A stretch of DNA of 64,000 bases from Patescibacteria group bacterium (GCA_049322655.1 JBMORP010000006.1:448410-512409); one strand, 5' to 3'. Positions 1,095 through 47,589 are shown, counted from the first letter of the stretch. Numbers and translations are program-made. Notes: generated by a model from the sequence alone, not told the origin.

Positions 1095-1706
1095 TTAACT
1101 CATGGCTTGTTGGTAAAGCTCAGCCACTTTGGGCCAATTAACTACTTTCCAAAAAGCCTCAATATAATCTGGACGACGATTTTGATACTTCAGATAATAA
1201 GCATGTTCCCACACATCCAAAGCCAAAATTGGGGTTGTGTTTTCCATCCAAGGATTATCTTGATTAGCGGTGCTGGTCACTTTGAGCTTACCATTATCAA
1301 CTACCAACCAAGCCCAACCAGAGCCGAATCTAGTTGCAGCAGCCTCTGAAAAAATTTGTTTAAAACCTTCAACAGACCCAAAAGTTGCTTCCAAATCATC
1401 TTTTAAAACCCTAGGAAGCTCTTGTTTTTGAGGTGAGAGCAGTTGCCAGAAAAGACTATGATTGGCGTGACCACCACCATTATTTCTGACTGCTAGCATG
1501 GTTTTAGGATCATCAATTTCTTTTAGTGACTGCATCAAAGTCTCGATTGGTAAGTCTTGCATATCTGGCAAACCAGTCAGGGCAGCGTTCAATTTATCAA
1601 CATAAGCTTGGTGATGCTTAGTATGATGAATCTCCATAGTCTGAGCATCAATAACTGGCTCCAAGGCATCATAAGCATAGGGTAATTTGGGTAAAGAATG
1701 TGACAT
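1095..1706 (-). CDS. sod: Fe/Mn superoxide dismutase
   Basis: [13 protein letters not shown]...[10 protein letters not shown]...DVWEHAYYL; classic Fe/Mn-SOD metal ligands and length (203 aa). Confidence 0.95.
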
Positions 1707-8577: not shown

Positions 8578-9432
8578 TTAAAGACCTGCTTTCTCTAGCT
8601 CTTTGAAAAGTCTCTTTTGTTCTCTGGAGAGTTTCTCTGGAATCTCGACCACAATCTTGACATAAAGGTCACCATTACCCCTAGATCTAAGTCTAGGTAC
8701 ACCCTCATCTCTCAATCTAATAAGACTATTTGATTGAGTTCCTGGTCTAATCTTCATCTTAAGATGATCTTCCCTCAAGGTAGGAATCTCAATGGTGCCA
8801 CCCAAAACGGCTGTAGAAATCGAGATTTTTTCAGTTAAGAAAACATCATAACCATCTCTTTTGAATCGTTCATGAGGTCTTACCTCGATAGTCACATCAA
8901 AGTTTTCAAAACGAATCCGAGTACCATCATTGGCCCCAGCGGGAATCTTTACTTTTTGTTTTTTACCCTCGATCTCAACCTCTTTAGTCACTCCATGGAC
9001 AGCTTCCATAAACTCAATGGTAAGACCATATCTGGGACGACGCGCGGCCCGACCAAAACCACCACCAAAAAATGACTCAAAAATCTCAAATGGATCATTA
9101 AAATCAAAGTCAGGAGCACCGCCACCAGAAGTCTGATAAGTCCAAGTAAATGGTCCCTGTTGAAAACCGCCAAACGGATTACCACCACCAAAGCCTCCTG
9201 AGGCAGGATCAAACGCAGCATGACCAAATTGATCATAAGCTTGGCGTTTCTTGTCATCAGACAAAATTTGATAAGCTTCATTGATTTCTTTAAACTTGGC
9301 CTCGGCGTCTTTTTCCTTGTTCTTATCTGGATGGTATTTGAGCGCCATCTTCCTATAAGCAGCCTTAATCTCTGGCTGGGAAGCAGTTTTAGTAACTCCT
9401 AAAATCTCGTAATAATCACGTTTGGTTGACAT
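8578..9432 (-). CDS. DnaJ-class co-chaperone lacking the zinc-finger domain (type II/CbpA-like); probable ATG at 9432 (ORF track extends to TTG at 9453)
   Basis: J-domain with HPD (YYEILGV...KYHPDKN), G/F-rich linker (GGFGGGNPFGGF), C-terminal substrate-binding domains; no CxxCxGxG repeats. Confidence 0.8.
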   Translation of the reverse strand: MSTKRDYYEILGVTKTASQPEIKAAYRKMALKYHPDKNKEKDAEAKFKEINEAYQILSDDKKRQAYDQFGHAAFDPASGGFGGGNPFGGFQQGPFTWTYQTSGGGAPDFDFNDPFEIFESFFGGGFGRAARRPRYGLTIEFMEAVHGVTKEVEIEGKKQKVKIPAGANDGTRIRFENFDVTIEVRPHERFKRDGYDVFLTEKISISTAVLGGTIEIPTLREDHLKMKIRPGTQSNSLIRLRDEGVPRLRSRGNGDLYVKIVVEIPEKLSREQKRLFKELEKAGL

Positions 9433-9469
9433 AGAATGTAGTGATTGTAACAAGGAATTTTGAAAAAAT

Positions 9470-14577: not shown

Positions 14578-16503
14578 TTATTCCTCAACTACTTCACCTT
14601 CCTCAGCATCTTTCTTATCACCAGCTTTTTCTGCTTTTTTATTGCCCTTTTCATCTTTGCCAGCCTCTTTATTAGCTTCAGCCGCTTGTGCCTTTTGCAT
14701 CGCTTCGCCTAATTTCTGAGCTGAAGTCAAAGTTTCTTCCGTGGCTTTATCCAAAGCTTCTTTGGTAACATCATCTTTTTCTGCCATCTCTTTGAGTTTT
14801 TTAACATTCTCTTCGATGACTTCTTTATCTTTCTTATCCAACTTATCACCATAATCTTTGAGCTGTTTCTCCATTTCAAAAGCAACACTAGTGGCCTTAT
14901 TTTTGGTTTCAATCAACTCTTTCTTCTTTTTATCTTCTTCAGCGTGTTTCTCAGCATCAGCCTTCATTTTTTCAACTTCATCATCAGATAAATTAGTGCT
15001 GTTCTGAATAGTGATCTTTTGCTCTTTGCCAGAAGTTTTATCTTTAGCAGAAACATTCAAGATGCCACTTGAGTCAATATCAAAAGTGACTTCAACTTGA
15101 GGCACTCCTCTAGGTGCTGGAGGAATTCCATCCAAAACAAATCGACCCAAACTTTTGTTATCAGCAGCCATTTCTCTTTCACCCTGCAAGACATTGATCT
15201 CAACTTGGGTTTGATTATCAGCTGCCGTAGAGAAAACCTGTGATTTACTGGTGGGAATAGTGGTATTTCTTTCAATCAAAGGAGTTCGAATCCCACCCAG
15301 AGTCTCAAGACCCAGGGTTAGCGGGGTAACATCAAGTAATACCACATCAGAAACATCCCCACCAATTACTCCGGCTTGAATAGCAGCCCCAATGGCTACT
15401 ACTTCATCTGGATTTACCCCCTTATGTGGATCTTTACCAAAGAATTTCTTCACTTCCTCCTGAATCCTAGGCATTCTAGTTTGCCCACCAACCAAAATCA
15501 CATCACCAATATCCTTGGCTTCAAGCTTGGCGTCTCTTAAGGCTTTTTTAACCGGCTCAAAAGATTTTTTAACCAAGTCATCAACTAATTCTTCCAGTTT
15601 TGATCTAGTTAAAGTCATAGTTAAATGAAGAGGTTGACCAGCATCACCTTGTGCAATAAAAGGTTGGTTTATTTCTGTTTGTTGGGCAGAAGACAGTTCA
15701 ATTTTAGCTTTTTCGGCACTGTCTTTAATGCGTTGCATCGCTTGAGGATCTTTGGCTAAATCTTTACCATGTTCTTTCTTAAACTCAGCCAAAACATACT
15801 CGATAATAGCATTATCAAAGTCATCACCACCCAAGAAAGTATCACCATTGGTTGATTTGACTTCAAAAACACCATCACCAATCTCCAAAATCGAGATATC
15901 AAAAGTACCACCACCCAAATCATAAACTGCGATGGTCTTACTGCCTTTTTTGTCCAAACCATAAGCTAAAGCCGCTGCGGTTGGCTCATTAACAATCCGT
16001 TCTACCTTCAAACCAGCAATCTCACCAGCTTGTTTGGTAGCTTGGCGTTGAGAATCATCAAAGTAGGCTGGCACAGTAATCACCGCTCTAGTCACAGTTT
16101 CACCTAAATAACTTTCAGCATCAGCCTTAGCTTTAGCCAATACTTTAGCAGAGATTTCTTGAGGAGTTAAAGTTTTACCACTCACCTTAACCACCGCCAT
16201 TCCATCTTTACCATCAGTCACTTCGTAAGCAATATGTTTCAAAGCATTTTTCACTTCTTTATCACCAGCTTTACGACCCATGAAACGTTTCACTGAATGA
16301 ACTGTCGAAGTTGGGTTCATTACCATTTGTCGCTTAGCCGCGTCACCGACAATTACTTCATCACCTTTGAAAGCAATAATTGAAGGAAAAGTATTTCTTC
16401 CTTCTGCGGTTGCGATAATTTTGGGGGAGCCACCTTCCATCACTGCCACTGCAGAGTTGGTGGTTCCAAGATCAATACCAATGATTTTTCCAGAGTCTGC
16501 CAT
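14578..16503 (-). CDS. dnaK: Molecular chaperone DnaK (Hsp70)
   Basis: [18 protein letters not shown], full Hsp70 architecture with acidic/Lys-rich tail; 641 aa. Confidence 0.97.
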
Positions 16504-16569
16504 ATTTCCTCCTTATGTTTATTTTTTTGCAAATATTTACTAATTAATAATTGTTATTTGTACTATATT

Positions 16570-16596
16570 TTAGCAAACAAGTCAAATGACTGCTAG
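16570..16596. promoter_or_regulatory. CIRCE-like inverted repeat TTAGCAAAC-N9-GACTGCTAG between grpE and dnaK
   Basis: 6-bp arms TTAGCA/TGCTAA-type with 15-nt spacer; same architecture as sites upstream of hrcA and groES. Confidence 0.45.
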
Positions 16597-16622
16597 CATA
16601 AGTTTGATATTGGTGCTGAGAG

Positions 16623-17075
16623 TTATGCCAAGGTTACTTTAGCGTGCTGAATCACTACTCCGTTAAGTTTGTAACCTTTGCGCACCACTTCAATCACTTT
16701 ATTGCCTTGACCTTTTTTTTCAACTGCCTCCATTAAATTAACATCAAAATCTTTTCCCATCACTTCAATTTCTTCCAAGCCAGCATTGACTAAAACTTTC
16801 TTTAACTGGTCTAAAACCATATTCAAACCTGGATCGTTAAGTTGAGCAGCTGCCATTTCCAAATGTTCTAAAGGTTGAATTAGATCTTCCATTAATGATT
16901 GATTTGCTAATTTAATACCTTTCAACCGTTCTTCTTGAGTACGTCTCAATAAATTCTGATAATCAGCCAAAGATCTTTTTTCTTTTTCTGAAGCAACCTT
17001 AAGCTGTTCTTCCAAAGCAAGAAGCTTAACTTCAAGTTTCTTATCTTGGTTGGTTGGTGATGTTGTTTTTTTCAT
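16623..17075 (-). CDS. grpE: Nucleotide exchange factor GrpE
   Basis: Coiled-coil N-terminus plus C-terminal beta domain (RRTQEE...LMEDLIQPLE); 150 aa; between hrcA and dnaK. Confidence 0.9.
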   Translation of the reverse strand: MKKTTSPTNQDKKLEVKLLALEEQLKVASEKEKRSLADYQNLLRRTQEERLKGIKLANQSLMEDLIQPLEHLEMAAAQLNDPGLNMVLDQLKKVLVNAGLEEIEVMGKDFDVNLMEAVEKKGQGNKVIEVVRKGYKLNGVVIQHAKVTLA

Positions 17076-17160
17076 AATTTCAAAGTAAAAGAAAAATGCC
17101 CCAGCCCCTAATGGGGTTACCTCATACTAACCTGACACTTTTCGTAACAAATTTGTTAAT

Positions 17161-17886
17161 TTACCCTGCTATTTCTTCAATTAACCCTTTAAAGTACTTT
17201 AACATTGGAATGACATATGGATAGTCAAAACGGTGAGAACCAAGCACCCCTAGTTTGCAAGGTCTACCTGCAGCATTGACATTAGTGTAAATAACACTAA
17301 TTGGTTCTAAGTTTTTATTTCCCAACTCTTTGCCATAGACCAAGTGAACTAGGTTTTCACTTTGACCAAGACCAAAAACTTCCTTAATCATATCAACTTC
17401 TTCAATTAGGTTAAGCACATTCCTAGTCACTCTAATGTCAAAAAACTCTGGCATATTAAGTAAGTTGGCATAACCAGAGTGGTAAATTCGATGATCAGTA
17501 TCAGACATAGCCAAACCAACCGCTCCAGATTTATCAGCCAATAACTTCGCTGCCTCATAAAGTAAAGCATCTGTTTCTTGGCGATGTTTCCAGATCTTTT
17601 CTTTGGCGCTGACTTCATCAGCGACTGATAACTCTTTTTCTTTCATTAATTCATTAACATAAAGACGTAAAGCCAGAGGAGTAGGAATTCTGCCAGCAGA
17701 AATATGTGATTTTCTAAGATAACCCTGTTTAGTCAAGTAAACCATTTCATTACGAATCGTAGCTGGAGAAACACCAATATTGTATTTTTTATCAATCGTC
17801 TCAGAACCAACTGGCTTAGCAGTTTCGATAAATTCCTCGATAATAGCCCGTAAAATTTGTATCTGGCGCGCGACGAGATCGATCAT
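17161..17886 (-). CDS. hrcA: Heat-inducible transcription repressor HrcA (short, 241 aa)
   Basis: N-terminal wHTH: ILRAIIEEFIETAKPVGSETI...ISPATIRNEM; first gene of hrcA-grpE-dnaK. Confidence 0.85.
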   Translation of the reverse strand: MIDLVARQIQILRAIIEEFIETAKPVGSETIDKKYNIGVSPATIRNEMVYLTKQGYLRKSHISAGRIPTPLALRLYVNELMKEKELSVADEVSAKEKIWKHRQETDALLYEAAKLLADKSGAVGLAMSDTDHRIYHSGYANLLNMPEFFDIRVTRNVLNLIEEVDMIKEVFGLGQSENLVHLVYGKELGNKNLEPISVIYTNVNAAGRPCKLGVLGSHRFDYPYVIPMLKYFKGLIEEIAG

Positions 17887-17889
17887 ATA

Positions 17890-17916
17890 TTAGCAATAAT
17901 AAGGGCTGAGTGCTAG
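17890..17916. promoter_or_regulatory. CIRCE-like operator TTAGCAATA-N9-GAGTGCTAG immediately upstream of the hrcA start
   Basis: Right half matches CIRCE consensus GAGTGCTAA 8/9; abuts the hrcA ATG (3 nt). Confidence 0.55.
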
Positions 17917-31458: not shown

Positions 31459-31656
31459 AATAGTCACCTCCATAAAGTCTTGGCGAAAATTCTCCAGCAA
31501 CAATCTTAAAGAGCGAGTTATCTTTCCTAGCCAGGAAAGACAGCCAGCGTCTCTAAGGCATCGGAAAATTACTCACCAGACTTCTAGTATAACAAAATAT
31601 ATCAAAATAGTCAATGTTATAGGATACAAATCACCTTTCACAAAATAACTAAAAAA

Positions 31657-31678
31657 GCCCCTTATCAGGGGCTTTTTT
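31657..31678. terminator. Bidirectional terminator AGCCCCT-tatc-AGGGGCT flanked by A6/T6 (after groEL)
   Basis: Perfect 7-bp stem with poly-A/poly-T flanks. Confidence 0.7.
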
Positions 31679-31697
31679 AATTTTAAAACAATGTTTT

Positions 31698-33314
31698 TTA
31701 CATCATTCCAGGCATACCACCAGTTGGCATAGCTGGTTCTTCTTTTGGCACATCAGTAACTAAACACTCTGTAGTTAAAATCATTGAAGCTACAGAAGCA
31801 GCATTTTCCAAAGAAGAGATTGCTACTTTGGCTGGTTCAATCACCCCTGCCTCCACTAAGTCTTCCAACTTGTTGGTCACGGCGTTGAATCCATAAGTAT
31901 TACTGTTTTTTTGTAATACCTGACCAACTACCCAACCAGCATCTTCACCAGAGTTGGTAGCCAACATTCTCAGTGGCTCAGCCAAAACTGATTTGACTAG
32001 ATCCACTCCAGCTTTTTCATCTTCGCTGGTAGTTTTAAGTTCTTCTAGAACTTTAGTTGTTCTAAGTAAAGTCACTCCACCACCTGGAATAATGCCATCT
32101 TCAATCGCAGCTTTGGTGGCTTCTTTGGCGTCTTTAACTCGTTCTTGAAGATTTTTCATCTCAAGCTCGGTGCTAGCACCTACTTGGATTACTGCTACCC
32201 CACCAGTGAGCCGAGCTTTTCTCTCCTGAAGTTTTTCAATATCAAACTCAGAAGTAGAACTTTTAATCTCAGCCTCGATTTGAGCAACTCTAGCTGTGAT
32301 ATCGTTTTTACTACCTTTACCACCAACAATTCTGGTGGTGTCTTTGGTACATCTGACACTATCAGCTCGACCTAGAGACTCAATCGTAACATCTTTAAGT
32401 GCTCGACCGGTTTCACTACTAATAAAGTCAGCCCCGGTTAACACAGCAATATCTTGCAACATCGCTTTTCTTCTATCACCAAAGCCAGGAGCTTTGACTG
32501 GCAAAGCCTTGAAAGAACCACGAAGCTTGTTAACTACTAAAGTAGTCAAGGCTTCACCTTCAATATCATCAGCAATCATCACCAAACCTTTACCAGCATT
32601 CACCACTTGCTCTAAGACTGGCAAGATTTCTTTAATATTAGTGATTTTTTGGTCGGTCACCAAAATAAATGGATCTTCAATAACTGCCTCCATGTTTTCA
32701 GAATCAGTGACAAAGTAAGGAGAAGCATAACCTTTATCAAACTCCATTCCTTCTTTGTGTTGAATCTCGATTTCCATGGTTTTGCCTTCTTCGACCTCAA
32801 CCACTCCATCTTTGCCTACTAACTTAAGAGCTTCAGCGATTTTTTTACCGATCTCTTCATTTTGGGCAGAAATGGTGGCCACTTTTTCCCAATCACTTTC
32901 TTTGACTGGTTTAGCCACCTTGCGGATTTCTTTGACCACAGTCGCCACTGCTTTATCAATCCCTCGTTTCATAATCATTGGATTGGAACCAGCAGTGATG
33001 TATTTCATCCCTATTTCACTCATCTTCCAGGCTAGAAGGGTAGCCGTGGTGGTACCATCACCAGCTACATCATTAGTCTTAGAAGCAGCTTCTTTGACTA
33101 ATTGAGCACCCATGTTTTCAAATTTGTCTTCTAGTTCAATCTCTTTAGCCACAGACACGCCATCATGGATCACATTAGGAGCTCCCCAAGCTTTATCCAA
33201 AGCCACATTGCGCCCTTTGGGACCCAAGGTCGTAGTCACTGCTTGAGCTAACTGTGTAATTCCAGACAACATTTTTTGTCTAGCTTGATCACCAAATAAA
33301 AGTTGTTTTGCCAT
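31698..33314 (-). CDS. groEL: Chaperonin GroEL; start at ATG 33314 preceded by AGGAGG
   Basis: [12 protein letters not shown]...[10 protein letters not shown]...C-terminal GGM tail ([10 protein letters not shown]). Confidence 0.97.
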
Positions 33315-33351: not shown

Positions 33352-33699
33352 TTATTTAACTATTGCTAAAATATCTTCAAATTTTAAGAATTGATACTCG
33401 ATGTCATCAATCATCACTTCGTTACCACCCCATTTCTTGTAAACTACCATATCGCCTTTTTTTAGCTCTACTTCACAACAGTCAGGAGCTTTTTCATTAC
33501 AGCAACCACCACCACAACACTGGTCCTCACAACAACCACGATCAGCTTCACCCACAGCAAGCACCTTACCATATTGAGGTTTTTCACTATCATTTTCTGG
33601 CAAGATAATTCCAGCTACTGTTTTTTGTTCACTTTTGGCTGGTTCTACCAAAACATAACCTGCCATCGGTTTTAATTGAGCGACTGAAAGACTTTTCAT
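33352..33699 (-). CDS. groES: Co-chaperonin GroES carrying an 8-Cys insertion in the roof hairpin
   Basis: GroES fold (YVLVEP...GKVLAVG...GDMVVYKKWGG...ILAIVK). Insert DRGCCEDQCCGGGCCNEKAPDCCEVE replaces the usual ~13-aa roof loop; 115 aa versus typical ~95. Confidence 0.85.
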   Translation of the reverse strand: MKSLSVAQLKPMAGYVLVEPAKSEQKTVAGIILPENDSEKPQYGKVLAVGEADRGCCEDQCCGGGCCNEKAPDCCEVELKKGDMVVYKKWGGNEVMIDDIEYQFLKFEDILAIVK

Positions 33700-33787
33700 G
33701 TTTTAACTCCTTTTCCCTCAGTTTTAAAACTGAGTACTAGAATAAATTACTTTATACTTGGGCAAACTGACAAAACCTGTCAGTCAA

Positions 33788-33814
33788 TTAGCAATTATAA
33801 TAATCGACTGCTAA
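33788..33814. promoter_or_regulatory. CIRCE-like operator TTAGCAATT-N9-GACTGCTAA upstream of groES
   Basis: Same variant architecture as the hrcA and dnaK sites; about 90 nt upstream of the groES ATG. Confidence 0.5.
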
Positions 33815-33845
33815 AAACTTGTCAACTACTTTTTATTGAGGAAAT

Positions 33846-34997: not shown

Positions 34998-36074
34998 GTG
35001 CAAATACTTAAATTAGATAAAAATAACCAACCACAAATTATTGACCAAGCTTGTCAAGTTTTGGCCAACGGTGGAATCGTCATTTACCCAACTGAAACAG
35101 TTTATGGCGTGGGCGTTGATGCCACTAACTTTCAAGCTGTAGAAAAATTATTAGCTTATAAAAGTCGTCGAGAGGGTAAACCATTATCGGTCGCTGTAAC
35201 CAGTCAAGAAATGGCAGAACAATACGTGATTTTGACTGAGCAAGCTAAAAAATTTTATCAACGGTTTTTACCTGGCCCTTATACCATTGTTTCTCAAGGT
35301 AAAAACCAAGTTGCGCCGGCTGTTGAATCAGAGTTTGGCACCTTGGGAATTAGAATTCCTGATTATCCACTGATCACTAACCTAGTCAAAGAATTTGGTA
35401 AACCAATTACTTCTACTTCAGCTAACGGCTCTGACAAAAAAAGACCTTACCAAATTCAAGACATTTTTGATAATTTATCTAAAAAACAAAAAAATCTAAT
35501 TGATTTAGTGATTGATGCTGGAGTTTTACCTCCCAACGAGCCCTCCATCGTCATTGATACTACCCTATCTACTCCTTTAGAAGTAAGAGGCCAATTATCA
35601 ACTCAACCAGCCGACAAAAAATTTTTGACCAAATCAGAGCAAGAAACCAAAAATCTAGCGGGCAAACTTCTCCTTAAATACTGGAACCAACTAAAAAACC
35701 AAGGTCTAATCATCGGTCTTAACGGGAAATTAGGCACAGGTAAAACCATCTTTACTCAAGGAATGGCTCAATTTCTCCAAATTGACCAACCCCTTTCATC
35801 GCCCACTTATAACTACCTAAATCAATATGACTTTACTAGACACAATACCAAAGGTATTCTTTACCACTTAGATGTTTGGAAAATAGACTCTGAACCATCC
35901 TTTAAACTGTTAAATATTCCCAGTTTAGTCGCTCCAAATACCGTAACTGTAATCGAGTGGTGGCAACAAATTGAACCATATTGGCCCACAAACCTGCCAC
36001 TTACTTTTCAAGCTTCGATTAGTGAGGTCGCTGGAGATATTGAAGCCAGAGAAATTAGGATTTTTGAATCATGA
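34998..36074 (+). CDS. Fused TsaC(YrdC/Sua5)-TsaE(YjeE) t6A biosynthesis protein
   Basis: N-terminal YrdC domain (IVIYPTETVYGVGVDATN...KSRREGKPLSVAV); C-terminal TsaE motifs GLNGKLGTGKT (P-loop), SSPTYNY, LYHLDVWKI. Confidence 0.75.
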   Translation: MQILKLDKNNQPQIIDQACQVLANGGIVIYPTETVYGVGVDATNFQAVEKLLAYKSRREGKPLSVAVTSQEMAEQYVILTEQAKKFYQRFLPGPYTIVSQGKNQVAPAVESEFGTLGIRIPDYPLITNLVKEFGKPITSTSANGSDKKRPYQIQDIFDNLSKKQKNLIDLVIDAGVLPPNEPSIVIDTTLSTPLEVRGQLSTQPADKKFLTKSEQETKNLAGKLLLKYWNQLKNQGLIIGLNGKLGTGKTIFTQGMAQFLQIDQPLSSPTYNYLNQYDFTRHNTKGILYHLDVWKIDSEPSFKLLNIPSLVAPNTVTVIEWWQQIEPYWPTNLPLTFQASISEVAGDIEAREIRIFES

Positions 36075-44882: not shown

Positions 44883-47054
44883 TTAGATTGGGCAAGCACC
44901 ACTTTCACATTTGAGATGGTCCAAGTTAATGTCTTCCAGCAAGCCATCTTCATCACTAATTTCACGAATAACTTTCATAAATTCATTGATATTAATTGCT
45001 TCTTCTGGTTGATATTCATAAGCTGTTGCATCAATCTTGGGCATCACACTACAAGTTCTAATTTGTGGCTGATATTTGGTTACCATCGCTTTGAATTTTT
45101 GATAGGAAACTTTATCTGGATCATATTTCAAAGTATAAGAAACTTGGTTACCAGTATCAGGTTCTAATGGTTTGCCAGCTTCATCGATACCTCTAATCCA
45201 ATATTTTTCTAGTAACATCAACCATTTATATTGTTCTTCAGGAGTAGCTTCAGCGGCAGTAACTAATTGGCCATTCATTCCCAATTTACAGATTTCTGGT
45301 TGAGTGGGAAAACCAACGACCGTAGTCCCTGGATAGCTTTTTAGTTCTCTAACTGGGTAACCCATTTTCTTATATTTCTTAACTAGTGGATCATCCTCTC
45401 TAAACTGCACCCAACGAATATATTCCCTCATGGCTGGTAAATGAGCTCCTTCAGAAAGACCAAAAAGTTTTGATGTAGTACCAGCTGGTTTAATCGTGGT
45501 ATTAGTATGAGGCAAATTAACTCCCAATTTTTTGGAGTATTTTTCAGCTTCATCAACCACTGCTCTTTTAAATCTAGCAATAGTTAACCAAAAGTCTTTA
45601 GCTTTTTTTTCATCAATTAAATCTCTAAAGCTGTAACCAAAAGCATTCCAAGCATACTCGTGAATACCAGTCATCCCCACTCCAATTCGGTTAGTTCTTT
45701 TAACCTCCCTGGTGTAAAGAGAATCCATGGTGTTAGTTCTAATCAAAGCTCTGGTAGCAACTCTGAAAGCTTCTTCAGCTGCTTCAACATCTGGAGCATG
45801 ATATGGCACCACATCAGCAATCACACAATAACCACCCAACATGTTAAGAGTAATCTCTCCACAAGGGTTGGGAATCTGCGTATAGTATTTAGCACCAGCT
45901 TTTTTAGCTACCTTGGCTAGTAATTTTCGAGCATTATTAGTTGGTTGATATTTTTTACTATCAGCATATTTACCATCAACATAACCGTTAAAACCTTTGT
46001 CATTTTGCACATACTTATGTTGATTAACAAAACCTGGCTCTCCAGTTTTGTCGTAGTAAGCTGCTTTCAAGATAGCATCCAAAACTTTCTTTGAATGTTT
46101 GGTTTTTTGTTTCCAAAACTTGTCATCAACAGCAACACTATTGTTAGCAGACCACAAAAAGCCACCTTTCTTGATCGAGATAAAATCAAAAATACCAGCA
46201 TCAGTCCAAGTTTTAACCGCAATTCTAGCGGCTCTTCTAGCGCCACCCACCAATACACACTCTGACAAATAGTGATCGACAAAAATAGTTTGTCGCCATG
46301 GTTCCATACCAGAATTTTTCACTGTCGCCACTTTCTGAATTGCTTTCATTAAAGGTCTGGGACCAGAAGCTGGTCTGTTCTGCATTCCTTTAATCTTGGC
46401 GCCTTTAGGTCTAACTTTGGAAAAATCAATAATTAACAAATCATCTTTGTATTTTTTCTCAAAGGCCATGGTTTCAATCTTCTCAATTGCTTGAGCCCAA
46501 CCTTCGCGCGTATCTGGTACCTCAAACCAAAAAACTTTACCATATTTATGCTTGGCATCTCGCACACTCTCATCTTCACCCCAAATAAAGTCTGGATGAT
46601 TCTCGTCTAAAACACAACGAATGATGGGCATCTGGTCCCAATCAACCACCATTAAATCATCATCATAGGCTCTACCCACACCAGAGCCATTCAACAATAA
46701 GTAAAATAACAAGAAAGAACTAGAAGCAGTACTACAGTTCGTAAAAACCTCCATATTTCTGCTGGGTTGAGTCTCATCACCATGTTGAAGGTGGCGACCA
46801 CTCATTAATAAAGAAGCATTAGCAATGTGTTTTTTTAATAATTCGTACTCAGCTTGTTGGTGTTTTTTGTCATTCTTAACCAACAAAGAATTGCCCAAGG
46901 CAACTCGGTCAGCTACTTCACTCCAAGTCTCAAGGTTGCCTTTTTCATCAGTACGCAAAATAGTTCTCTTAGCAACAGCTTCACCCAAGCCCTTAGCCAA
47001 TCTTCTATCGGTAAATTTCATTTTTTTCTTTGGTAGTGCTCCCGCTTGGGTCAT
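44883..47054 (-). CDS. nrdJ: Class II (adenosylcobalamin-dependent) ribonucleotide reductase
   Basis: 723 aa monomeric type; active-site NPCGEI motif, C-terminal Cys pair (CESGACPI); 21 nt downstream of nrdR. Confidence 0.7.
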   Translation of the reverse strand: MTQAGALPKKKMKFTDRRLAKGLGEAVAKRTILRTDEKGNLETWSEVADRVALGNSLLVKNDKKHQQAEYELLKKHIANASLLMSGRHLQHGDETQPSRNMEVFTNCSTASSSFLLFYLLLNGSGVGRAYDDDLMVVDWDQMPIIRCVLDENHPDFIWGEDESVRDAKHKYGKVFWFEVPDTREGWAQAIEKIETMAFEKKYKDDLLIIDFSKVRPKGAKIKGMQNRPASGPRPLMKAIQKVATVKNSGMEPWRQTIFVDHYLSECVLVGGARRAARIAVKTWTDAGIFDFISIKKGGFLWSANNSVAVDDKFWKQKTKHSKKVLDAILKAAYYDKTGEPGFVNQHKYVQNDKGFNGYVDGKYADSKKYQPTNNARKLLAKVAKKAGAKYYTQIPNPCGEITLNMLGGYCVIADVVPYHAPDVEAAEEAFRVATRALIRTNTMDSLYTREVKRTNRIGVGMTGIHEYAWNAFGYSFRDLIDEKKAKDFWLTIARFKRAVVDEAEKYSKKLGVNLPHTNTTIKPAGTTSKLFGLSEGAHLPAMREYIRWVQFREDDPLVKKYKKMGYPVRELKSYPGTTVVGFPTQPEICKLGMNGQLVTAAEATPEEQYKWLMLLEKYWIRGIDEAGKPLEPDTGNQVSYTLKYDPDKVSYQKFKAMVTKYQPQIRTCSVMPKIDATAYEYQPEEAININEFMKVIREISDEDGLLEDINLDHLKCESGACPI

Positions 47055-47075: not shown

Positions 47076-47525
47076 TTATTTTTCTAATTTGCTAATCTCA
47101 CCCTTAAAGTCTTCTAGACTGTCAAAATCTCGATAAACAGTCGCAAATAACAAGTAAGCCAAAGGATCTAGTTTTTTTAGTCTATTAATGACTAAATTAC
47201 CTATCTCCCAACTTTTGATCTCGGTAACATGCTTATCTCTAATTTTCGATTCAACCTCATTAATTAAAGTATCAATTTCTGCCACGGAGACAGGCCTTTT
47301 CCAAGTTGCTTTGATTAAACCTCTTTTGATTTTTTCCCGACTAAAGAACTCTTTAGAACCATTTTTTTTGATTACTTTTAAATCAATTCCTTCTGCACGT
47401 TCATAAGTAGTGAAACGACGTTTGCAACTTTCACATTCACGTCTCCTGCGAGTAGCCTCACCACCCTCGGCATCTCTGGAGTCAATGACTGCTAAATTGC
47501 TTTCTTTACAAAAAGGACACAACAT
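47076..47525 (-). CDS. nrdR: Transcriptional repressor NrdR (zinc ribbon + ATP-cone); start at ATG 47525
   Basis: MLCPFCK...CESCKRRFTTYE plus ATP-cone. Confidence 0.9.
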   Translation of the reverse strand: MLCPFCKESNLAVIDSRDAEGGEATRRRRECESCKRRFTTYERAEGIDLKVIKKNGSKEFFSREKIKRGLIKATWKRPVSVAEIDTLINEVESKIRDKHVTEIKSWEIGNLVINRLKKLDPLAYLLFATVYRDFDSLEDFKGEISKLEK

Positions 47526-47540
47526 ATTCTCTTCCCAATA

Positions 47541-47556
47541 CCACAATATATTGTGG
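47541..47556. promoter_or_regulatory. NrdR box 1 (CCACAATATATTGTGG)
   Basis: Perfect 16-bp palindrome matching the NrdR-box consensus acaCwAtATaTwGtgt; 16 nt upstream of the nrdR ATG. Confidence 0.6.
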
Positions 47557-47573
47557 TTTAGACAAATTTTCTG

Positions 47574-47589
47574 CACAACAAGTTGTACA
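47574..47589. promoter_or_regulatory. NrdR box 2 (degenerate: CACAACAAGTTGTACA), ~33 bp from box 1
   Basis: ACAAC-aa-GTTGT palindrome; spacing consistent with the tandem NrdR boxes described for nrd operons. Confidence 0.4.

What the first reader, a model, noticed from the sequence alone, without database searches (positions are those of the whole stretch)
33463..33545. GroES with an 8-cysteine (CC-x3-CC-x3-CC-x6-CC) insertion in the roof hairpin
The groES gene, directly upstream of groEL, encodes 115 aa instead of the usual ~95. The extra ~14 residues sit where the roof beta-hairpin normally is, between the conserved VLAVG and GDxVxF blocks, and read DRGCCEDQCCGGGCCNEKAPDCCEVE.

The roof hairpins of the seven GroES subunits meet at the apex of the dome, so a heptamer would cluster 56 cysteines around the dome orifice. 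That geometry could bind metal or form a redox-sensitive cap. The known precedent for metal-binding GroES is a C-terminal His/Cys-rich tail (H. pylori HspA), not an internal roof-loop insertion.

The surrounding frame is clean and the codons run in-frame through the insert (tgt/tgc pairs), so this is not a frameshift artefact.
Basis: partly seen in the sequence, partly recalled or inferred. Interest (0 to 1): 0.75.

Follow-up and report, generated by a model that had tools for sequence, protein, structure and literature searches.

The report
Cysteine-packed roof loop on GroES
In this ultra-small uncultured bacterium (Patescibacteria), the chaperonin lid protein GroES has its roof hairpin replaced by a cysteine-packed, metallothionein-like loop, which would place 56 thiols at the apex of the lid; over 200 related protein clusters carry versions of it, it was gained or lost at least four times, and I found no description of it in the literature.

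Summary
groES (33352..33699, minus strand, 115 aa) lies 37 nt upstream of groEL. Residues 51-78 read EADRGCCEDQCCGGGCCNEKAPDCCEVE. These 8 Cys are the only Cys in the protein, and they sit exactly at the tip of the roof hairpin.

It is not an assembly artefact. The same gene was assembled independently in two other datasets, with all 8 Cys kept and a synonymous change in one Cys codon.

It is not a one-off. 96 of the 120 closest protein clusters ("Pacebacteria"-type) and 117 of 118 in a second clade (Roizmanbacteria-type) have Cys-rich roofs of 16-85 residues with 2-20 Cys. Some also carry (HX)n runs.

A tree of the adjacent GroEL puts the trait in four well-supported clades interleaved with normal-roof relatives, so there were at least 4 gains or losses.

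Composition is metallothionein-like: about 24% Cys, 27% Asp+Glu and under 4% hydrophobic residues, with CxC or CC spacings enriched and CxxC depleted.

The rest of GroES, GroEL and the heat-shock promoter (CIRCE-like element) are ordinary.

Best reading: a metal-thiolate cap on a working co-chaperonin, analogous to the H. pylori HspA tail but at a different site. The function is inferred, not shown. Nine searches of the held paper library found no description.

The parts
33352..33699 (-). groES (co-chaperonin Cpn10), 115 aa
   Evidence: ORF. Pfam PF00166 E=7e-23. The AF2 model matches GroES/Cpn10 structures 1P3H, 4V4O and 1AON.
33466..33549 (-). Cys-rich segment replacing the roof beta-hairpin, residues 51-78: EADRGCCEDQCCGGGCCNEKAPDCCEVE
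   Evidence: Aligned over the roof hairpin of solved GroES and in A1. Contains 8 Cys, 8 Asp/Glu and no hydrophobic core. Residues 55-75 have pLDDT below 50.
33475..33534 (-). Span of the four Cys-Cys pairs (C56/57, C61/62, C66/67, C74/75), with a GGG turn between pairs 2 and 3
   Evidence: Read directly from the sequence. All 8 Cys are conserved in L082 and L083, with a synonymous TGC>TGT change at Cys66. The CCGGGC core recurs in 24 of 96 Pacebacteria-type roofs and 3 of 117 Roizmanbacteria-type roofs.
33577..33636 (-). Mobile loop (residues 22-41, KSEQKTVAGIILPENDSEKP) with the hydrophobic tripeptide I31-I32-L33 that contacts GroEL
   Evidence: Aligned with the E. coli, T. thermophilus and M. 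tuberculosis mobile loops. G30, I31, L33 and P34 are invariant or nearly invariant across the family.
31698..33314 (-). groEL (Cpn60), 538 aa from the ATG of MAKQLLFG, ending in a normal GGM-type tail (PTGGMPGMM)
   Evidence: Pfam PF00118 E=3e-66. The start was read. It has 2 Cys and an ordinary tail, like the GroEL partners of normal-roof GroES.
33797..33825 (-). Sigma-70-type promoter-like site: TTGACA, 17 nt spacer, TATTAT (11 of 12 matches)
33788..33814 (.). CIRCE-like inverted repeat (TTAGCAATTATAATAATCGACTGCTAA) overlapping the promoter; presumed HrcA operator
   Evidence: 2 matches in the window against 0.04 expected. The other match lies just upstream of hrcA (17890-17916). hrcA was confirmed by Pfam.
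33707..33712 (-). Ribosome-binding site AAGGAG, 7 nt before the groES ATG
   Evidence: Read.
31647..31682 (-). Intrinsic-terminator-like hairpin (16-bp stem plus T run) just after groEL; end of the groES-groEL operon

Best explanation
This is the organism's working, heat-shock-regulated GroES. Its roof beta-hairpin has been replaced by a two-armed, Gly-turned, Cys/Asp/Glu-rich loop: CC-x3-CC, then GGG, then CC-x6-CC.

In the heptamer the seven roof tips converge on the seven-fold axis. This is established GroES architecture and was not modelled here.

I propose that the cap binds soft or borderline metal ions as metallothionein-like multinuclear thiolate clusters. Candidates are Zn(II), Cu(I) and Cd(II), plus Ni(II)/Zn(II) in relatives that also carry (HX)n runs. 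The loop would be disordered without metal and would fold around it.

The likely role is metal buffering, storage or detoxification on a very abundant, stress-induced scaffold. This is the same logic as the Ni-binding C-terminal domain B of H. pylori HspA, but at a different site and built mainly from Cys.

The cap most likely projects outward from the dome, so the folding chamber and GroEL binding stay unchanged.

Shown: gene, position, conservation, composition, recurrent evolution, and ordinary GroEL, mobile loop and regulation. Inferred: heptamer geometry, metal binding, identity of the metal, and physiological role.
For: (1) The GroES is a normal working copy apart from the roof. It has the Cpn10 fold, a conserved mobile-loop tripeptide, a groES-groEL operon, a CIRCE-like element and a promoter. 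The GroEL partners are ordinary.

(2) The Cys are under selection. The background Cys frequency is 0.52%, against 29% in the insert. The rest of GroES has 0.05% Cys across 96 homologues. All 8 Cys are kept across strains, with a synonymous Cys-codon change. Indels relative to the orthologue L081 are all in frame (15, 6 and 9 nt) and add Cys.

(3) The trait is broad and recurrent. 96 of 120 and 117 of 118 clusters in two GroES clades carry it, and the flanks of the two clades are only 50% identical. On the GroEL tree there are four Cys-roof clades, each with bootstrap support of at least 97%. They are never monophyletic together (0 of 100 replicates), and at least 4 state changes are needed.

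(4) The chemistry is metallothionein-like. Roofs are 24% Cys, 27% Asp+Glu, 11% Gly and under 4% hydrophobic or aromatic. CxC and Cx3C spacings (Pacebacteria-type) or CC (Roizmanbacteria-type) are enriched. CxxC, the hallmark of zinc ribbons, thioredoxin-type redox sites and ferredoxin motifs, is depleted in both clades (z = -4.5 and -3.6).

(5) 14 of 96 roofs add His runs such as HSHSHSHSH, HDHDHDH or HEHSHEEHTHDEH. These are typical Ni/Zn ligand repeats and resemble HspA domain B.

(6) AF2 gives low confidence and no secondary structure for the roof even with a deep, nearly ungapped alignment. This is what is expected of a metal-dependent fold; apo-metallothionein is disordered (established knowledge).

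(7) No other coding segment in 672 kb of window plus related loci is Cys-dense. So this is not a genome-wide low-complexity habit.
Against: No metal binding was or could be measured.

The insert has no detectable homology to any Pfam family, metallothioneins included. The one precomputed hit, DUF7205, is faint.

No metal-homeostasis genes are linked to the operon in the window or in the related loci examined.

The roofs are far more acidic than classical metallothioneins.

The Cys count varies from 2 to 20, so no fixed stoichiometry is conserved.

Even Cys counts are modestly over-represented (129 of 213, p=0.0025). This could reflect disulfide pairing rather than duplication of CC units.

The window encodes an Fe/Mn superoxide dismutase. 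The organism therefore meets oxygen, and a redox role is possible.

The z-scores are inflated because the sequences are related.
Confidence: 0.5

Rival explanations
1. Redox cap. The clustered thiols act as a redox sensor or a sacrificial antioxidant sink. On oxidation, intra- or inter-subunit disulfides would form at the apex and either lock or stabilise the heptamer or scavenge oxidants, in organisms with few antioxidant systems.
For: There would be 56 thiols at one spot. Even Cys counts are modestly favoured (129 of 213). H. pylori HspA domain B uses its CC pairs as two disulfides (C94-C111, C95-C112). An Fe/Mn SOD in the window shows exposure to oxygen.
Against: CxxC, the usual redox-active spacing, is depleted. 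Odd Cys counts are common (84 of 213). The His-rich (HX)n runs in 14 roofs have no obvious redox role. The bacterial cytoplasm is reducing, and vicinal CC disulfides are strained (established knowledge). Redox and metal roles are not mutually exclusive, because metal release on oxidation is known for metallothioneins.
Confidence: 0.2
2. Purely structural plug. The loop, stapled by a few structural metal ions or disulfides, closes or reshapes the dome orifice or stiffens the heptamer. It would have no role in metal homeostasis.
For: The roof is the part of GroES that tolerates remodelling. T4 gp31, which lacks the roof hairpin (own knowledge), is matched by fold search, though more distantly than cellular GroES. 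A GGG turn flanked by CC pairs suggests that a hairpin-like two-armed topology is retained.
Against: A structural role would predict a conserved length and Cys pattern. Instead roofs range from 16 to 85 residues with 2-20 Cys, and indels occur even between congeners. Normal-roof sister clades manage without it. AF2 sees no defined fold.
Confidence: 0.12
3. Metal hand-off inside the folding chamber. The loops hang into the dome and supply metal ions to substrates folding in the GroEL cis cavity, or scaffold a cofactor for them.
For: The roof tips line the only opening at the top of the cis cavity (established structure). The short Roizmanbacteria-type roofs of 16-24 residues would fit inside.
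Against: Long roofs would fill 30-45% of a 175,000 cubic-angstrom cavity (57-85 residues x 7), which is hard to reconcile with encapsulation. No co-variation is seen in GroEL. There is no evidence for any client protein.
Confidence: 0.08
4. Neutral low-complexity expansion. Slippage of TGT/TGC/GAT-rich repeats in a tolerant loop, with no function.
For: Length is hypervariable. In-frame indels occur in TGTTGT-rich DNA between close relatives. There is no detectable fold.
Against: Cys is the rarest residue class in this proteome (0.52%) yet reaches 23-24% specifically here, in four separate clades. Nothing similar exists in 672 kb of related sequence. Cys spacing is non-random. Cys codons change synonymously. 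Neutral drift would not hold free thiols in an essential, abundant protein.
Confidence: 0.05
5. Sequencing, assembly or frameshift artefact.
For: None found.
Against: There are independent assemblies from two other datasets with the same insert. There are hundreds of homologous clusters, some seen on dozens of contigs (P0281 is indexed in 140 blocks of the collection).
Confidence: 0.01

Closest known systems
Helicobacter pylori HspA (GroES with the C-terminal metal-binding domain B)
   Same: A functional GroES carries an extra Cys/His-rich segment with CC pairs, presented seven-fold on the heptamer. In HspA this segment binds 2 Ni per monomer and serves nickel storage and detoxification. Some relatives of the window protein also carry His-X repeats like those of HspA.
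   Different: HspA's segment is a 27-residue C-terminal tail that extends radially. It is His-dominated (8 His, 4 Cys), and its Cys form two disulfides. [quoted passage not shown] Here the segment is internal, at the tip of the roof hairpin on the seven-fold axis. It is Cys- and acid-dominated (8 Cys, 0 His in the window), and the C-terminus is ordinary (…ILAIVK). There is no sequence homology between the two segments.
Metallothioneins (e.g. mammalian MT, cyanobacterial SmtA)
   Same: Cys content is about 25-30%. CC and CxC motifs dominate. Aromatic and hydrophobic residues are almost absent. No fold is predicted without metal. Length and sequence evolve fast.
   Different: This is not a free-standing small protein but a loop inside Cpn10. 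It is much more acidic (27% Asp+Glu). It matches no Pfam metallothionein family. Metal binding is untested.
Mycobacterium tuberculosis Cpn10 acidic dome loop (structures 1HX5, 1P3H)
   Same: The roof (dome) loop tips form a cluster of acidic residues around the orifice. From memory of the structural literature, not retrieved here, this cluster interacts with divalent cations. It shows that the roof apex can be a cation site. It is the best fold match to the model.
   Different: The length is normal, there are no Cys, the ligands are carboxylates only, and there is no insertion.
Bacteriophage T4 gp31
   Same: It is a co-chaperonin whose roof region is drastically remodelled while GroEL binding is retained, showing that the roof is evolutionarily plastic. 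Fold search matches it distantly (rank 35).
   Different: From my own knowledge, gp31 deletes the roof hairpin to enlarge the cavity. Here the roof is enlarged and chemically specialised.
SlyD-type chaperones with His/Cys/Asp/Glu-rich metal-binding tails
   Same: A general folding helper is fused to a low-complexity metal-binding segment used in Ni/Zn handling (own knowledge; the SlyD metallochaperone papers surfaced but were not read).
   Different: The fold is unrelated (FKBP). The segment is a C-terminal tail rather than an internal loop, and it is monomeric rather than clustered seven-fold.

Membership tests
Cpn10 / GroES co-chaperonin | Sequence match to the Cpn10 family profile above the curated threshold | tested here: met
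   PF00166: 80.8 bits against a cut-off of 21.1, E=7e-23, in two stretches flanking the insert.
Cpn10 / GroES co-chaperonin | GroES beta-barrel fold | tested here: met
   The AF2 core has pLDDT 70-85. The Foldseek top hits are all Cpn10/GroES (1P3H, 4PJ1, 1WNR, 4V4O, 1AON), with probability 1.00 and TM-score about 0.6-0.75.
Cpn10 / GroES co-chaperonin | Mobile loop with a conserved hydrophobic tripeptide for GroEL binding | tested here: met
   G30-I31-I32-L33-P34 aligns with E. coli GGIVL and T. thermophilus GGIVLP, and is invariant or nearly invariant in the family.
Cpn10 / GroES co-chaperonin | Operon with groEL under heat-shock control | tested here: met
   groEL lies 37 nt downstream. The operon has a promoter, a CIRCE-like repeat and a terminator, and hrcA is in the window. 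The arrangement is the same in all related loci with a complete groEL.
Cpn10 / GroES co-chaperonin | Heptameric dome that caps GroEL and supports folding | not testable with these tools
   Only monomer prediction was available. This needs biochemistry or multimer modelling.
HspA-type metal-binding GroES | C-terminal His/Cys-rich extension (domain B) | tested here: not met
   The window protein ends …FEDILAIVK at the normal GroES C-terminus. The extra segment is internal.
HspA-type metal-binding GroES | His-rich HX4DH / HDHXH nickel motifs | tested here: not met
   The window insert has 0 His. His-rich runs occur in only 14 of 96 related roofs.
HspA-type metal-binding GroES | Binds Ni(II) or other metal and affects metal tolerance | not testable with these tools
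   Requires purified protein or genetics.
Metallothionein (functional class) | High Cys content with CC/CxC motifs and few aromatic residues | tested here: met
   8 of 28 residues are Cys in the window. Family-wide, roofs are 23-24% Cys and under 1% aromatic. CxC or CC is enriched and CxxC depleted.
Metallothionein (functional class) | Homology to a described metallothionein family | tested here: not met
   An hmmscan of nine isolated inserts against Pfam at E<=10 returned 0 families.
Metallothionein (functional class) | Small, free-standing, metal-induced protein that forms metal-thiolate clusters | tested here: not met
   The segment is embedded in GroES, and the operon carries a CIRCE-like (heat-shock) element rather than a recognisable metal-responsive one. 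Cluster formation itself is not testable here.
Zinc ribbon / zinc knuckle / thioredoxin-like CxxC site | Paired CxxC motifs | tested here: not met
   The window insert has no CxxC. CxxC is depleted relative to shuffles in both clades (z = -4.5 and -3.6).
Ferredoxin-type Fe-S site | CxxCxxC…CP motif in a hydrophobic environment | tested here: not met
   The motif is absent. The insert has no hydrophobic residues apart from one Ala and one Val near its ends.

The most novel reading that the evidence does not exclude
The Cys-rich roof makes the chaperonin lid an active metal station. Seven loops would hold a large thiolate-metal cluster, or a labile Fe-S or Zn pool, at the top of the folding chamber, and hand metal to newly folded metalloproteins inside GroEL or release it on oxidation. 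This would be a 'metallochaperonin', which organisms with minimal genomes evolved several times in place of dedicated metallochaperones.
Probability: 0.08. Interest if true: 0.9.

Novelty: new variant of a known kind. Interest (0 to 1): 0.68.

Why it matters
GroES is one of the most studied and most conserved proteins in biology, and Cys is rare in it.

A lid whose apex carries 56 to 140 thiols, found in over 200 clusters from uncultured lineages and gained or lost at least four times, points to a strong and unexplained selective pressure in Patescibacteria. These organisms have tiny genomes and few known stress or metal-handling systems.

If the cap binds metal, it would be only the second kind of metal-binding GroES after H. 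pylori HspA, and it would have arisen independently at a different site. It would also indicate how minimal cells buffer Zn, Cu or Ni, or cope with oxygen.

The protein is small, should be easy to express, and can be tested directly. The heptameric Cys ring could also be useful as a self-assembling metal-binding scaffold.

Tried and rejected
(1) Artefact or frameshift: rejected. There are independent assemblies, and the synonymous change at Cys66 shows the codons are real.

(2) Exact look-up of the window protein in the public assemblies: not on record. The 97%-identical P0001 was used instead.

(3) Homology of the insert itself. An hmmscan of nine isolated inserts against Pfam found nothing. 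A search of the 5.8-billion-protein database with a 56-aa insert failed because no candidate shared enough words with the query, possibly because the sequence is low-complexity; that search was wasted. The precomputed PF23835 label on three homologues is only a faint DUF7205 hit.

(4) Genome-wide Cys-rich low complexity: rejected. The other ORFs flagged as Cys-dense are out-of-frame or antisense products.

(5) Co-adaptation of GroEL (Cys content, C-terminal tail): none seen.

(6) Linked metal genes. None are conserved next to the operon. The conserved neighbours are band-7, sua5/tsaE, tsaD and smpB. An MgtC gene appears only in L081.

(7) Structure of the roof. AF2 was run on the window protein and on a Roizmanbacteria-type protein with a deep, nearly ungapped alignment. 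Both roofs came out with low confidence and no secondary structure, so no geometry could be derived. A heptamer could not be submitted.

(8) Literature. Nine searches found no description: GroES or co-chaperonin with cysteine-rich, Patescibacteria, CPR, Microgenomates, roof, metal or metallothionein terms. The library lacks most subscription journals, so absence is not proof.

(9) Single origin of the trait: rejected on the GroEL tree. Caveats are the NJ method and possible operon transfer.

Full report
**What is there.**
On the minus strand, an ORF at 33352..33699 encodes a 115-aa protein. An AAGGAG ribosome-binding site lies 7 nt upstream of its ATG.

The protein matches Pfam Cpn10 (E=7e-23) in two stretches separated by a non-matching middle. 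groEL follows 37 nt downstream (31698..33314; Pfam Cpn60 E=3e-66).

The operon has a strong sigma-70-type promoter-like site, TTGACA-17-TATTAT, at 33825..33797. A CIRCE-like inverted repeat at 33788..33814 overlaps it. A terminator-like hairpin follows groEL at 31682..31647.

A second CIRCE-like site sits in front of hrcA (17890-17916). This looks like the organism's regular heat-shock chaperonin operon.

**The feature.**
Residues 51-78 read EADRGCCEDQCCGGGCCNEKAPDCCEVE. The segment has four Cys-Cys pairs (CC-x3-CC-x3-CC-x6-CC), 8 acidic residues and 2 basic residues. There is no Cys anywhere else in the protein.

Alignment with solved GroES chains places this segment over the roof hairpin, T. 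thermophilus GTGRVLENGQRVPLE. In a multiple alignment with E. coli, T. thermophilus and M. tuberculosis GroES, the extra residues open at the hairpin tip.

Close relatives with a normal roof (GSVWESGVKEIKSP) are 100-102 aa. The window protein has therefore replaced the hairpin with a loop 13-14 residues longer.

The window's ORFs contain only 0.52% Cys. The chance of 8 or more Cys in 28 residues at that frequency is 1.6e-12.

**Not an artefact.**
Two independent assemblies carry the same 115-aa gene in the same gene order, smpB–x–tsaD–sua5/tsaE–x–band7–groES–groEL. They are GCA_964433225.1 (L082) and Logan SRR6827980 (L083), and they are 95.5-96.3% identical in DNA to the window.

Within groES they differ from the window at 9 codons. 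Six differences are synonymous, including Cys66 TGC>TGT, and all 8 Cys are kept.

A more distant orthologue, L081 (about 78% DNA identity, same synteny), has 12 Cys. It differs in the insert by in-frame indels of 15, 6 and 9 nt, while the groES flanks stay about 90% identical.

**How widespread.**
The 120 closest 90%-identity clusters were examined together with the window protein. Of the 120 sequences that could be parsed, 96 have Cys-rich roofs of 18-85 residues with 2-20 Cys. The other 24 have normal 13-14-residue roofs.

The names that sources give these proteins are Candidatus Pacebacteria or Patescibacteria group.

A second GroES clade, named Candidatus Roizmanbacteria by sources, has flanks only 50% identical to the first. 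In it, 117 of 118 parsed clusters have Cys-rich roofs of 16-24 residues with 2-7 Cys. One member is indexed in 140 blocks of the public collection.

Among GTDB species representatives, 18 of the 73 parsed loci from the 80 best hits have Cys-rich roofs. Collierbacteria, Woesebacteria and other Microgenomates have normal roofs.

**Evolution.**
I built a neighbour-joining tree of the adjacent GroEL (539 columns, 80 loci plus E. coli). It puts the Cys-rich roofs in four clades, each with bootstrap support of at least 97%, interleaved with normal-roof clades. One Cys-roof clade is sister to a normal-roof group in 100 of 100 replicates.

All Cys-roof taxa together are never monophyletic (0 of 100). 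Parsimony needs at least 4 changes in every replicate.

So the trait was either gained several times or is old and repeatedly lost. Either way it is not a neutral accident of one lineage. Caveats: NJ only, GroEL used as a proxy for the species tree, and operon transfer not excluded.

**Chemistry of the roofs.**
- Pacebacteria-type roofs pooled: 24% Cys, 27% Asp+Glu, 11% Gly, 11% Ser, 7% Lys and under 4% hydrophobic or aromatic. The rest of the same proteins has 0.05% Cys.
- Roizmanbacteria-type roofs: 23% Cys.
- Against within-roof shuffles, CxC and Cx3C are enriched in the first clade (z = +6.6 and +5.4), and CC is enriched in the second (+3.1).
- CxxC is depleted in both clades (-4.5 and -3.6). 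These z-scores are inflated by relatedness, but the direction is the same in two separate clades.
- Fourteen roofs add (HX)n runs such as HSHSHSHSH, HDHDHDH and HEHSHEEHTHDEH.
- Many long roofs are bipartite: a Cys cluster, then a Lys/Glu/His-rich linker, then a second Cys cluster.
- A CC-GGG-C(C) core recurs in 24 of 96 and 3 of 117 roofs. I read this as a retained two-armed hairpin with a Gly turn. This is an inference.

The isolated inserts match no Pfam family.

**Structure.**
AF2 models the Cpn10 core with pLDDT 70-85 for the window protein and about 90 for the Roizmanbacteria-type protein. The roof is modelled at below 50 and at 55-58 respectively, with no secondary structure, even with a deep and nearly ungapped alignment. 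The model's best structural matches are GroES/Cpn10.

The mobile-loop tripeptide (I31-I32-L33) and the other family invariants are intact. The GroEL partners of Cys-roof and normal-roof GroES look alike, with 0-3 Cys and GGM-type tails. No other coding segment in 672 kb of window plus related loci is Cys-dense.

**Interpretation.**
In solved GroES structures the seven roof hairpins converge on the seven-fold axis and line a small acidic orifice. This is established knowledge and was not recomputed here. Seven copies of this loop would therefore put 56 thiolates and 56 carboxylates at the apex.

Three things match metal-thiolate clusters of the metallothionein type. Cys is extremely enriched with almost no hydrophobic residues. 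CC and CxC spacings are favoured while CxxC is avoided. No fold is predicted without a ligand.

The His-repeat variants point to Ni or Zn. The one experimentally studied parallel is H. pylori HspA. Its C-terminal domain B (8 His, 4 Cys in two CC pairs) binds two Ni per monomer and serves nickel storage and detoxification. It is described as unique among GroES proteins.

A volume estimate argues that the cap lies outside the dome. Roofs of 57-85 residues x 7 would fill 30-45% of a 175,000 cubic-angstrom cis cavity (the cavity size is from the literature, from memory).

The rivals are a redox-active thiol cap (0.2), a purely structural plug (0.12), metal hand-off into the folding chamber (0.08) and neutral low-complexity expansion (0.05). 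The modest excess of even Cys counts (129 of 213, p=0.0025) and the SOD gene in the window keep the redox reading alive. It may coexist with metal binding.

**Comparison with what is known, and novelty.**
The protein is a full member of the Cpn10/GroES family by every feature that could be tested.

It is not a member of the HspA type, because it has no C-terminal tail and no His. It is not a member of any described metallothionein family, because there is no homology. It resembles both in how it probably works.

Nine literature searches found no description of Cys-rich roof loops in GroES. Public records call these proteins simply 'co-chaperone GroES' or '10 kDa chaperonin'.

I rate it a new variant of a known kind: a metal-binding appendage on GroES, at a new site, with different chemistry, and evolved recurrently. 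Interest is 0.68.

Noticed in passing
window 17890-17916 and 33788-33814: There are two CIRCE-like inverted repeats (3 mismatches each to TTAGCACTC-N9-GAGTGCTAA; 0.04 expected by chance). One lies just upstream of hrcA and one overlaps the groES promoter. This suggests an intact HrcA/CIRCE heat-shock regulon in this Patescibacteria genome.
   Followed up: partly
window 1095-1706 (-): An Fe/Mn superoxide dismutase gene is present (Pfam Sod_Fe_N and Sod_Fe_C, E=1e-31 and 7e-42). This implies the organism meets oxygen, which bears on a possible redox role for the Cys cap.
   Followed up: partly
related loci, e.g. L019, L020, L021, L029, L043, L053, L067, L078 (roof ...EIKCPVKK): Many normal-length roofs in relatives carry a single conserved Cys just before the Pro at the end of the hairpin (K-C-P). 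Seven such Cys would ring the orifice. This may be the evolutionary seed of the Cys-rich roofs.
   Followed up: no
window 34998-36074 (+): Sua5/YrdC and TsaE domains are fused in one 358-aa protein, immediately followed by tsaD with an overlapping stop and start (36071). The same fusion is conserved in relatives L081, L082 and L084.
   Followed up: partly
window 33718-33738 (groES 5' leader): A perfect 7-bp inverted repeat, ACTCAGT-TTTAAA-ACTGAGG-like (ctcagttttaaaactgag), lies between the promoter and the ribosome-binding site. It may be a leader stem-loop of unknown role.
   Followed up: no
loci L001, L005, L008, L010, L011 and many others (record titles): Dozens of MAG records titled 'uncultured Pseudomonadales bacterium' carry Patescibacteria-type groES-groEL loci. 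The taxon label in these records looks like a placeholder or an error.
   Followed up: no
window 14578-17886 (-) and 8578-9453 (-): An hrcA-grpE-dnaK cluster and a separate dnaJ-like gene are present. DnaK and GrpE contain no Cys at all, in line with the very low Cys usage (0.52%) of this genome segment (only hrcA was checked by Pfam).
   Followed up: partly
window 44883-47054 (-) and 47076-47576 (-): A ribonucleotide reductase matching the B12-dependent class II insertion domain lies next to a Cys-containing NrdR-like ORF. The NrdR-like ORF is one of the few other ORFs here with several Cys, probably in a zinc ribbon.
   Followed up: partly
P0037, P0085, P0119 and others (homologues, not in the window): Some roofs are near-perfect internal repeats, e.g. 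CGEGCGDCGEGCGDCG in P0037 or (CxCG)n in P0085. The longest roof (P0119, 85 residues, 20 Cys) makes GroES 173 aa. This suggests growth by tandem duplication of short Cys units.
   Followed up: no
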